A stretch of DNA of 61,049 bases, filler included, from Hausera hauseri (Eukaryota): NCBI GenBank assembly GCA_046269625.1. It is 11 parts of 11 records of this genome, joined end to end, with 100 filler letters (N's around TTAATTAATTAA, not from the genome) between each part and the next. Parts side by side here need not be neighbours in the genome. Positions count along the whole stretch, not along the records: positions 20,073 to 26,124 come from JBJURY010147757.1; 10 more parts are not named here. One strand, written 5' to 3'. Below are positions 23,001 through 26,124 of this stretch, piece by piece; positions within the stretch are counted from its first letter, which is position 1, and every line of letters starts with the position of its first letter. The position numbers were made by a program, and so were the translations under genes. The notes under the pieces were generated by a model. That model was given only the letters and a program-made list of their open reading frames with translations, was not told where the DNA came from and did not search any database.

Positions 23001-24160
23001 CGCAGGCAATGGTGAGCGGTTTCTAGACGTAAAACGAACGCGGTCAGCGGCAAAACCCCCTCTGCGCGACAGAGACAATTCGTTTAATTTATTATTATTA
23101 TTGTTGATTGTTGCATGTAGTGCAATATTTTCAGCACGTAGCTGATTAAGCTGTTGTTCTATGGATGTATTATTGGTTTGAATATCGTTAGCGGCAACTG
23201 CTGCTGAAACAACTAATGGAGAAATTACGTGTAGGACGTCGTGTGTCCTATCAGCTAATTCGGCTAATTTCTCAATCAGCGTGGAGTCCTCCACTACGGT
23301 AATTAGGGCCCGGATTTGGATAAATAACGCATTGAGGAAATAGTGGCGCAGTAGTTCTGGATTATGTTCCTTAGTGACGCCGAGGGTATGTAGATGTGCT
23401 AAGAAGGTACGTAAGAATTCTGATGGTCGTTGGGTGCCTATAACGTTGTCGTGGAAGAAACGTTGTATGACTGTGACCATGGAAGGTTCTGTGATCTTAA
23501 GAACTGTGTTGGAAAGTTGGGAATTTGGGTCACGGAGTTCGAAGATTTCGGTGATGTTGTAAATGCGGGTTTTGATGTTATTAGGCAGTAAGAAAAGAAG
23601 GTTATGTGCCTTAGTTAGAGAGTCGATAATGTTATTTGCCTGCAGCCATAGTTGATGGAATTGCAACGAAGTTTTGCTGGATCCTTGGTTGTTAATAAAG
23701 AAGTCGGTGCAGTTTGGCAAAGGAGAGGAAGAGGTAATGGATGGGAGGTTGCTCGCAGGGGTAGAAATGGATTTTTGAAGCAATATGACAGGTTTTGGTT
23801 TCGTGTTGGTTTTATCCGTGGTGTCTGCGGTTGGCGAAGAGTTTATGCCACCCCGGATATGGAGATTTATGTGGAGATAAGTGTGGCTTCAGAAAGTGAT
23901 AGGGTTCCGGTTAGGGGTATTATAGAACCGTTATGTATTATAGAACCGTTAAGTAAGAAAGAAATAAAGGTACGAAGGGTTGCAATATGTAAATGTGGTG
24001 TAGTGAATGTGTAAATGTGTATTATTGAGGAAAAGAAAAATAGAAAGGGGGAAGTAGTATGCCTGGGAGCGTGGTGTGAGGTCAATGCGAAAGGCGCCGT
24101 CTGACCGACCGGCGCATGGGTGACGGCCGGTCCCCCGCCGAGGCGCGGCGGGCCCCAAAT
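20073..24160 (-). mobile_element. Degenerate CsRn1-like Ty3/Gypsy element: LTR end cap, gag, PR, RT, RH, INT (3' end cut by contig end)
   Basis: Gag 22953-23783; CHCC knuckle CIYHARFKNQARKCIPGC; protease FLIDTGAAISLL (~22620); RT YIDD; RH TDHKPL; INT TDQGPQF. Confidence 0.95.
24075..24160 (-). repeat. GC-rich LTR end cap (...CCTCACA)
   Basis: Homologous to 53502-53630 and followed by the same pyrimidine-rich leader; contains hairpin GACCGGC..GCCGGTC. Confidence 0.75.
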
Positions 24161-24169
24161 TGCAGGGTG

Positions 24170-24960
24170 ACCGAGTTTCCCATCAAAAGTGCGGCCATGT
24201 CTTGAGCGTCTTTAAATCGACCGGACTCAATCATGCATTTGGTATAGAGACAATTAATGTATCGATCCTCTGTGTCCAATGATTGGGCCTCGTCCAAATA
24301 ATTACTGGCCAAATGGCGATTCCCAGCATCGTAATAAATACGACCTTTCAGTGCATAGAAGTCAGAGTTGGTGTGATATAGCCGGTTTTCAACGAGCTGT
24401 AAGGCATCCAAAACTCGACCCGTATGACTATAGTGTTGTGCCAGCAGATAATTAAGAAACATTTCGATCGTCGACGGTTCGATCTCGGCATCGACACCTT
24501 CCAATATCTGATATTCGTAAATGTTACGTGTATGTTTTGTAGAGTGTCCCTAGAATATCGACCTTTTCCGGAACGTTGTAGGGAAATTTCAATTGCACAA
24601 ACAACGCCCAAAGTCTCTTGCGAAGGGAACGTTTAATGTAATCATCAGCATATCGCTGAAACTTTTCACAGCGTAGTTTTTTTAGTGGAATCCACCGAGG
24701 CGTAAGTGCTCTCGGGTACTTTGCAATTAATTCATCAAGTAATTTGATAATCATATCCTCGTCATCGGTTACTTGTTTAGACTCCATAAATTTATAGTAA
24801 TAATACTCATTGTCCGGATTTCTATCGATTAATTCTCGAAAGATTTTCTCGGCGTCAGTATATCGATGGAGCCTTAGATAAAGTTCATCCTTGAATTCTT
24901 GGTAATGAAGTTTATCCACGATGCTCGATTCATTGCAATTCAAAAGGCTTAAAGCTTCCT
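24170..24960 (-). pseudogene. NAA15: NatA auxiliary subunit (NAA15/NAT1-like TPR) internal fragment, intronless
   Basis: IVDKL..E.K.EL.L.L.R..DA....[42 protein letters not shown]. Confidence 0.85.
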
Positions 24961-26124
24961 CAAAATTTCTGCTGGTTAGTAAATATCTCTTGATTCTACT
25001 CAGGGCTTCGTATGGATTATCGTACGATCGTTCAGTCAAGCCCGATTCTTGCCGTTGACTGTGGATGAGACGATTTTTAACACTAAATGCGTCTTTCAAT
25101 CGTTCAAGAGCGAGAATTAAAATTTTCGTATCGTGTTTGTTCGTCAAAGGTGGAAACGGAATGGGCGAATAACGTCTACTGTTAAGCTAGTGCACAGATT
25201 GTGCGTAAATGGCCACACCTTCTTCGTTAACCAAATATGGACCGTCTTTCAAGTAGTTGTTTTGTCTTTCTTGTTCCAATTTCAAGTTCAGACAAGTAAG
25301 TTGACCCAAGATTTTCTTACACACTGTTTTGTCGACTTGCATTCCTTCGGATTCTCTCACGATTGTAATGAGCAGTTTTTGTCCACCAATCAGTCTTATT
25401 CTTCAAGTATCGTAAAATCATATTCTTGACAAGTGCCGGCAAATTTGGCACTTTCCAGGGAATATTAGCCTTCCAACATCGCCATGTTTCACTTAAATGC
25501 TGCAAAATACTTTTAGCTTTCGTTTGTTTAATTCCCTCCGGCATCATATCGACAATATCGTGCATAATCGAAGCCCTTAACTCCAGATCGTAATGAGACT
25601 GAACTTTCTGCTTCGTAACAGTTTTAGCAACGCTCTTAATGTGCCGATCTTTAAATTGCCTTGACAAAAAATTGCCTAACCATCGCTCAAGCAGAGGTGT
25701 GATTCCTCGCAAAAGGAAAAGACACACACGCCACATCGGGGTCCAAAATCCAACACCGGGACCTTTCGTAACATTACCTGTATTGAATCGATAGTAAATC
25801 AAATGTTTCAGATCTTTACACATTCTAATCTGTCTCATCAATTTATATTTGTATCGGTACATGCCCGTCAATTGACCGATATGAGCAAATACGTATTGTA
25901 GACCATCGGCCAGCTGGAATGCATCAATGTTCCCCAAACGATATTGCACGTGACAATCAACGACCAATTTGGTAAATCGTAGAATTTCTCGCATCAAATG
26001 AAATGCATTTCCAAATCGAGACTTCTTTCTTTCTTTAGTCGTTAACGTTTTAACTGGTTTCAAATTGAAATTGAAATCCAAATGCAAATAATTCAAATTT
26101 TTACGATGAATGAGCAAATTCAAC
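24961..26124 (-). pseudogene. PRPF8: PRP8 spliceosomal protein internal fragment, intronless, with stop/frameshift
   Basis: [88 protein letters not shown]. Confidence 0.97.

What the first reader, a model, noticed from the sequence alone, without database searches (positions are those of the whole stretch)
24075..26124. Gypsy family whose LTRs appear to be short GC-rich caps enclosing kilobases of captured cellular genes ('pack-LTRs')
Seen: a conserved ~100-bp START cap (TGTGGTG/TGAGATGG...TTGGCCYATTT-GGYCGGGC...CCGAYT) follows the PPT at 33446(-), 45436(+), 57588(-) and, shorter, 5054(+). It also occurs without a PPT as an insertion boundary at 11537(-) and 53395(-). A different END cap (...CACA) precedes the gag leader at 1101(+), 24075(-) and 53502(-). 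No start cap runs straight into an end cap. Instead each cap abuts different gene-like DNA: PRP8-NAA15 before the 24075 cap, ACVR1-like plus pelota after the 33446 cap, a Ser-rich ORF after 11537, and SH3 after 53395. All identifiable cargo is intronless, fragmentary and in the same sense as the element. Inference: the LTR interior is a variable cargo bay loaded by RT template switching onto mRNAs. Known LTR-mediated gene capture normally places cargo between the LTRs, not inside them.
Basis: partly seen in the sequence, partly recalled or inferred. Interest (0 to 1): 0.92.

Follow-up and report, generated by a model that had tools for sequence, protein, structure and literature searches.

The report
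Retrotransposon ends loaded with host mRNA
In an unidentified animal, a jumping-gene family has intron-free pieces of ordinary host genes joined directly to the short head or tail of its terminal repeat, likely picked up as messenger RNA during copying; this is a known kind of gene capture in an unusual position, but no complete loaded repeat is present in this DNA.

Summary
The window is 12 unrelated short contigs, so only within-contig neighbours count. A high-copy CsRn1-like gypsy family is real. Its LTR has a GC-rich ~115-bp head after the PPT and a ~112-bp tail ending in CACA; in the one element with both inner edges they form a 16/20 inverted repeat, so the tail is a true LTR end. No tRNA primer site follows the tail (0 of 3). 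Intronless, same-sense PRP8-NAA15 abuts the tail; ACVR1-like plus pelota abut a head. Public contigs show two diverged copies of the NAA15-tail joint and a different sequence at the same joint.

Corrections: the six 'start caps' are two types; 53395 begins an ordinary ~257-bp LTR with a tRNA primer site, so SH3 is internal; 11537 has a PPT-like tract. No head-cargo-tail unit, TSD or twin-ended cargo is seen, and no parental gene was checked.

Best reading (0.55): the first strand transfer lands on host mRNA, placing cargo at the head/tail seam. New variant of LTR-mediated retroposition. The scan noted this family before on other pieces of this genome.

The parts
24953..26123 (-). PRP8 fragment, intronless, broken; cut by the contig end
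   Evidence: tblastn: residues 405-795 of P0003 (391 aa) on 1171 nt; ends at human residue 894
24187..24960 (-). NAA15 fragment, intronless, fused in frame to PRP8 near 24955-24960
   Evidence: homology stops at human residue 467 = about 24187
24075..24186 (-). LTR tail ('end cap'), GC-rich, ends CCTCACA; no TGG primer site after it
   Evidence: family-shared depth ends near 24185
20073..24074 (-). Decayed gag-pol (double CHCC knuckle, PR, RT, RNase H, IN), cut by the contig end
33447..33458 (-). Polypurine tract of the element on contig 30565-36453
33332..33446 (-). LTR head type A ('start cap')
   Evidence: 76% identical to 11428-11537
31900..33331 (-). ACVR1-like receptor fragment: putative 5' leader, ectodomain, TM, GS box, kinase to subdomain IX
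   Evidence: leader and ectodomain read by eye
31090..31899 (-). Pelota 5' fragment (ATG about 31693) with an AT-rich stretch ahead of it; runs into CpG-poor DNA with no LTR tail
11428..11537 (-). LTR head type A, preceded by a PPT-like G tract that is also family-B polymerase coding sequence
9620..11427 (-). Unidentified broken Ser-rich ORF (ATG at 11400) followed by a 3'-UTR-like stretch with AATAAA; likely cargo
   Evidence: no Pfam hit
45436..45545 (+). LTR head type B after PPT and pol; downstream DNA unidentified
57489..57588 (-). Diverged head type A after a PPT-like tract; downstream DNA unidentified
985..1101 (+). LTR tail of the element on contig 1-6862 (left limit approximate)
   Evidence: last 20 nt match the reverse complement of 5054-5073 at 16 of 20
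5054..5083 (+). Short hairpin head type B of the same element
53502..53615 (-). LTR tail, homologous to 24075-24186
   Evidence: z 6.8
53120..53395 (-). Nested ordinary LTR (53139-53395, about 257 bp) plus 18-nt tRNA-type primer site (53120-53137); not a cap
52451..52612 (-). SH3 domain, about 500 bp behind that primer site (internal position)

Best explanation
This is a high-copy CsRn1-like gypsy family in which intron-free host-gene pieces are joined directly to the ~115-bp head or ~112-bp tail of the LTR, likely because the first strand transfer of reverse transcription lands on a co-packaged host mRNA, which would place the cargo inside the LTR at the head/tail seam. Shown: head after the PPT, tail as LTR end, cargo abutting each, repeated joints at one point. 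Inferred: the minus-strand copy of the tail jumps to an mRNA instead of the element's own 3' end, copies it towards its 5' end, may hop to a second mRNA (PRP8/NAA15, ACVR1/pelota), then returns to the element RNA at the end of the head. Plus-strand transfer would copy the loaded LTR to both ends. If transcription starts at the tail, the cargo behaves as U3 and is inherited, which would explain several diverged copies of one joint. The minus-strand primer is unidentified; it is not a standard tRNA 3' end. The cargo is broken and probably has no protein function.
For: Tail is an LTR end: 16/20 inverted match within one element, 12/16 beyond the first four bases, p about 3e-4; att motifs fit CsRN1. 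Fixed joint: NAA15 homology stops at about 24187, where summed depth falls from 360 to 138 and 4 contigs carry a different upstream sequence. Multi-copy: X1 records 4 and 6 bridge the joint with 33 and 28 differences. Two 76%-identical heads are followed by unrelated sequence at the same point. No introns over about 390 aa PRP8, 260 aa NAA15, 230 aa ACVR1 kinase region and 180 aa pelota. 5 of 5 pieces in sense (3 loci, chance 1/8). Pelota and probably ACVR1-like and the 11400 ORF begin at their own 5' ends. Cargo CpG o/e 1.16-1.57 against 0.21-0.54 in four adjacent flanks. Relatives have ordinary LTRs with tRNA sites, so the layout is derived.
Against: No tail downstream of any of 6 heads (18 comparisons) and no head upstream of any of 3 tails (15 comparisons). 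The element with both inner edges shares no direct-repeat sequence between its ends. No TSD at 11537 or 53395. DNA after three heads (45436, 57588, 5054) and before two tails (1101, 53502) has no identified gene. SH3 sits behind a primer site. Parental genes were not seen, so intron loss is inferred. X1 may be the window's own source.
Confidence: 0.55

Rival explanations
1. One-ended retrosequences: the LTR is an ordinary ~230-bp head+tail, and mRNA pieces get joined to one half of it in aborted reverse transcription; the products enter the genome by recombination or repair, as with Ty1 retrosequences, and are not carried at both ends.
For: By eye, the alternative sequence upstream of the tail matches the last 30 nt of the two type-A heads at 16 and 14 of 30 positions (binomial 0.001-0.02 before correcting for register), hinting at a cargo-free LTR. 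Six full-length relatives have 159-215-bp LTRs.
Against: Several diverged copies of the same NAA15-tail joint need amplification after capture. Contigs of 2-7 kb could not hold a multi-kb LTR and the rest of the element.
Confidence: 0.2
2. Ordinary internal capture (Tan et al. type) in nested or tandem elements: the cargo replaces internal sequence and only seems to be in the LTR because contigs are short.
For: SH3 lies behind LTR + primer site at 53137. The polymerase gene upstream of 11537 is joined at a PPT-like tract. Chimeras of two genes are known in this class (PMC5131818 section 5).
Against: At 33446 the cargo starts about 115 bp after a PPT that follows pol, with no primer site between. 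At 24187 it runs into a tail that is an LTR end.
Confidence: 0.12
3. The gene pieces are flanking DNA (older processed pseudogenes or cargo of another element) brought against LTR halves by insertion and deletion.
For: Only three loci have identified cargo, so same-sense has chance 1/8. All copies are old and broken.
Against: Joints fall at homologous points of the caps; cargo CpG content resembles the element, not the flanks; the joint is multi-copy.
Confidence: 0.08
4. Assembly or amplification chimeras.
For: Short leftover contigs of a very high-copy family; abrupt switches to CpG-poor DNA that could be foreign.
Against: Two diverged contigs bridge the NAA15-tail joint with more than 31 letters each side; DNA chimeras would not remove introns or fuse two genes in frame.
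Confidence: 0.05

Closest known systems
LTR-mediated retroposition in animals (Tan et al. 2016, PMC5131818; abstract and sections 5 and 9 read)
   Same: Partial intronless mRNA copies joined to LTR-element DNA, two-gene chimeras, a recurrent switch site in one family, secondary amplification.
   Different: There, part of the internal ORFs is replaced in all Drosophila cases. Here the joints are at the LTR head or tail and gag-pol stays beside the cargo.
CsRn1 clade of Ty3/gypsy (PwRn1, AgCR; PMC2582038 passages; PMC3601003 passages)
   Same: CHCC Gag knuckle, PR-RT-RH-IN order, TGTGGYG..MSYYAMA ends, PPT before the 3' LTR.
   Different: No tRNA-Trp site; no tRNA-type site at all after the tail; GC-rich caps; cargo at the LTR; double knuckle.
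BARE-2 and Veju template-switch products (review PMC13317346, passages read)
   Same: Foreign sequence introduced by abnormal template switching, in BARE-2 into the LTR itself.
   Different: The insert in BARE-2 is another retrotransposon's sequence, one event; here several host mRNAs at a recurring seam.
Ty1 retrosequences in yeast (review PMC7175516, passages read; primary papers not held)
   Same: LTR-element RT copies co-packaged cellular RNA into the genome.
   Different: Occasional or selected events; a family-wide inherited load in the LTR is not described in the passages read.
Tf1/sushi self-priming elements (PMC7175516 passage)
   Same: No tRNA primer site.
   Different: No 11-nt self-complement here: longest match 4-6 bp, at chance level, in three decayed copies.

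Membership tests
Ty3/gypsy LTR retrotransposon | gag then PR-RT-RNase H-IN order | tested here: met
Ty3/gypsy LTR retrotransposon | PPT directly before the 3' LTR; inverted att ends | tested here: met
   (16/20 inverted match in one element)
Ty3/gypsy LTR retrotransposon | Two matching LTRs and a TSD | tested here: inconclusive
   no full-length copy; the ends of the 1101/5054 element share no direct repeat; no TSD found
CsRn1 clade | Gag CX2HX9CX3C knuckle | tested here: met
   intact at 22895, degenerate second copy at 22988
CsRn1 clade | tRNA-Trp primer binding site | tested here: not met
   no match with up to 1 mismatch in the window; no TGG within 15 nt of 3 of 3 tails. Filed therefore as CsRn1-like, not as a member
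CsRn1 clade | RT phylogeny with named CsRn1, PwRn1, Kabuki | not testable with these tools
   no named reference sequences held; one search places the family only among unnamed relatives
CsRn1 clade | 4-bp TSD | tested here: inconclusive
   seen in 6 of 8 long control loci; outer ends absent in the window
LTR-mediated retrocopy (Tan et al.) | Partial, intronless copy of a host mRNA | tested here: inconclusive
   colinear without introns; parental gene structure not seen
LTR-mediated retrocopy (Tan et al.) | LTR-element sequence on both sides of the cargo | tested here: inconclusive
   one side only in each contig; one cargo is cut by a contig end
LTR-mediated retrocopy (Tan et al.) | Cargo replaces internal ORF sequence | tested here: not met
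   not at 24187 or 33331, where gag or pol continues intact to the LTR edge; possibly met for SH3
LTR-mediated retrocopy (Tan et al.) | Microsimilarity at joints | not testable with these tools
   needs the parental mRNAs; only a protein-level overlap at the PRP8/NAA15 joint is visible
Tf1-type self-priming | About 11 nt after the LTR complementary to the RNA 5' end | tested here: not met
   4-6 bp, chance level; copies are decayed

The most novel reading that the evidence does not exclude
The family has lost both its tRNA primer site and a dependable R overlap, so host mRNAs routinely bridge the first strand transfer: its LTR is a fixed head and tail around an exchangeable, heritable mRNA cargo carried at both ends, making it a standing exon-shuffling device that primes minus-strand synthesis from a G-rich RNA mirroring the PPT.
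Probability: 0.25. Interest if true: 0.85.

Novelty: new variant of a known kind. Interest (0 to 1): 0.62.

Why it matters
LTR elements are known to capture mRNA, with the cargo replacing internal genes and crippling the element. Cargo at the LTR seam would leave gag-pol intact, be doubled at each round, and survive as solo LTRs, giving a self-propagating route to gene-fragment shuffling. It would also mislead annotation: LTR finders need matching ends, and gene finders would call these pieces as genes. The missing tRNA site points to an unidentified primer in a lineage whose relatives use tRNA.

Tried and rejected
No whole genome is held. The head motif had 0 exact matches in metagenome and viral contigs; P0122 had no relative in prokaryote genomes. 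No RNA holder listed.

My first idea that the 'end cap' is 5' UTR behind a hidden primer site was dropped after the 16/20 inverted match and the att motif fit. A ribozyme idea found no support: no Rfam match and the three tails fold no better than shuffles (z -0.96, -0.08, 1.72). Two of six heads fold better than shuffles (z about -2.3). Tf1-type self-priming: not found. A complete 30-bp LTR: the 5054 hairpin has no copy upstream of its element's tail.

Spliced leader at 11400-11430: 31 nt ending in ATG fits the 31-36-nt, AUG-ending leaders of parasitic flatworms (PMC12582326 passages), but it recurs nowhere else in the window and the supplement with sequences could not be read. Host identity: the PRP8 piece attaches among flatworm rows without support (37 of 120 hits used, no named arthropod, mollusc or annelid rows); pelota's best hits are 51-56%. 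An ORF upstream of the 53502 tail gave no Pfam or PDB match. The atlas and representative-protein searches were busy and never answered. Literature searches listed no paper on mRNA cargo inside animal gypsy LTRs; only listings were seen for most hits, and the library lacks most subscription papers.

Full report
Setting. The window is not one locus: it is 12 contigs of 1.9-6.9 kb joined by N spacers. No genome is held. Four contigs carry decayed pol of one gypsy family (1-6862, 20073-26124, 30565-36453, 42349-46790), 65-69% alike in DNA. The family is very abundant in run X1 (summed depth up to 140,000 against 7-15 for most single contigs listed; depth is not a copy number). In an RT tree it groups with P0121, P0122, P0149 (support 96) inside a clade (99) with metagenome loci L001-L014 (quick method, rows with short matches left out). 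Gag has the CHCC knuckle of CsRn1-like elements. The host is an animal; flatworm is possible but unsupported.

The caps. Against dinucleotide shuffles the start caps fall into type A (33446, 11537, 57588) and type B (45436, 5054); 4 of 15 pairs are significant. 53395 matches none. It opens about 257 bp ending in CA, followed by an exact 18-nt primer site that 7 of 72 fetched loci share in its first 12 nt; the label tRNA-Leu is recalled. So 53395 is an ordinary nested LTR and SH3 lies in an internal position. 11537 does have a G-rich tract that aligns with the PPT at 33447; the same bases are the tail of a family-B polymerase gene, so either insertion or a switch at the PPT is possible.

Is the end cap an LTR end? 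I first doubted it, because no TGG follows (0 of 3) and sister elements have ordinary AT-rich LTRs of 303-526 bp with a tRNA site (6 loci). But in the one element with both inner edges, the last 20 nt at 1101 are the reverse complement of the first 20 nt at 5054 at 16 positions, more than any of the other 17 pairings (4-12). CCTCACA at 24075 and 53502 fits the published CsRN1 3' att motif. I accept it as the LTR end. What primes the minus strand is open: no Trp site, no Tf1-like complement, no Rfam match. The tract there is C-rich and mirrors the PPT.

The cargo. 26123-24953 encodes 391 aa of PRP8 on 1171 nt, fused in frame to NAA15, which ends at human residue 467, about 24187. After the 33446 head come an ACVR1-like fragment (E 1e-72) and pelota from its ATG. 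All are broken, colinear with homologues and in the element's sense. After the 11537 head lies an unidentified ORF with ATG at 11400 and an AATAAA-bearing tail. Cargo has CpG o/e 1.16-1.57, the four gypsy stretches 0.86-1.12, four flanks 0.21-0.54. That argues against the cargo being local flank, and leaves open why housekeeping-gene pieces are CpG-rich beside CpG-poor DNA. Intron loss is inferred from established knowledge that these genes are intron-rich in most animals; the parents were not seen.

Independent copies. On 23960-24380, X1 depth falls from 360-570 to about 138 at 24185. Records 4 and 6 bridge the NAA15-tail joint with 33 and 28 differences, so at least two diverged copies exist besides the window's. 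Four contigs carry a different sequence upstream of 24187. By eye it resembles the last 30 nt of the type-A head (16 and 14 of 30), which would be a cargo-free LTR of about 230 bp, a normal size for this group (159-215 bp in 6 of 8 long control loci, with Trp site and 4-bp TSD). This is a hint only. Only 6 of 65 loose ends and 8 of 231 pieces were displayed, and X1 may be the window's own source (record 5 is identical over 158 nt).

What is missing. No tail lies downstream of any head and no head upstream of any tail (33 comparisons; profiles recover only their training sites). The two ends of the 1-6862 element share no direct repeat. There is no TSD and no twin-ended cargo. Three heads and two tails abut DNA with no identified gene. 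So 'caps enclosing cargo' is an inference from halves on different contigs.

Mechanism. From established LTR replication, the seam between U3 and R is where the minus strong-stop DNA lands. If the tail is R-U5 and starts near 24186, a jump onto a co-packaged mRNA gives exactly the tail-side joint; copying to the mRNA's 5' end and jumping on gives stacked pieces and the head-side joint, as at 33331. The loaded LTR would then be copied to both ends and inherited as U3. I put this at 0.55; one-ended products at 0.2; internal capture 0.12; flanking DNA 0.08; artefact 0.05.

Comparison. Tan et al. describe the same template switching in animals, with cargo replacing internal ORFs. A retrotransposon fragment inside an LTR is known from BARE-2 and Ty1 copies cellular RNAs. 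Five searches listed nothing on recurrent mRNA cargo in animal gypsy LTRs; coverage is limited. Earlier scan notes on other pieces of this genome report the same layout, including a solo unit with a TSD; they are unchecked leads, gave me the id of the Tan paper and the spliced-leader and foreign-DNA leads, and are not counted as evidence.

Verdict. Real feature, partly as described; new variant of a known kind; interest 0.62. The boldest reading (routine mRNA bridging plus a non-tRNA primer) has probability 0.25 and would merit 0.85.

Noticed in passing
window 1-850, 30565-31080, 54300-55846: CpG-poor DNA (o/e 0.21-0.42) abuts CpG-neutral element or cargo DNA within single contigs. It may be methylated host regions or foreign (for example vertebrate) DNA; if foreign, the missing opposite caps could be artefacts of these joins.
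   Followed up: partly
window 1102-1113, 24063-24074, 53490-53501: Where a tRNA primer site should be, a C-rich tract lies whose reverse complement resembles the family's own PPT, so the two inner edges are mirror images.
   Followed up: partly
L014:2921-3196, L005, L007, L010, L011; window 23847-24075: Gag of the sister clade starts with a ubiquitin-like domain ending in RxGG (Pfam ubiquitin E 4.8e-5 in 1 of 5 loci tested; motif in 6 loci); the window's 'gag leader' looks like a decayed copy.
   Followed up: partly
window 27419-29194 (+): Broken chuvirus-like fusion glycoprotein (Pfam PF24664), an endogenous viral piece.
   Followed up: no
window 11538-14849 and 16204-18223 (-); 7031-8913 and 47198-50178: Two pairs of related Polinton-like relics: family-B polymerase copies at 74%, and a second module at about 84%. 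The Polinton label is my inference.
   Followed up: no
window 36554-42248 (-): A second, unrelated decayed gypsy element.
   Followed up: no
window 31720-31748 (-): A 29-nt GT..AG stretch in the leader ahead of the pelota ATG could be a retained mini-intron or chance (by eye).
   Followed up: no
window 51857-52078: Small element with inverted ends bounded by TTAA, inserted behind the SH3 piece (by eye).
   Followed up: no
window 58224-59546 (+) and 60296-60751 (-): An intact 440-aa ORF without Pfam match, and a C2H2 zinc-finger ORF.
   Followed up: no
run X2 on window 20073-25337: A second organism holds the gag-pol family and a 356-nt PRP8 stretch with 42 differences, but does not cover the cap joint.
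   Followed up: no
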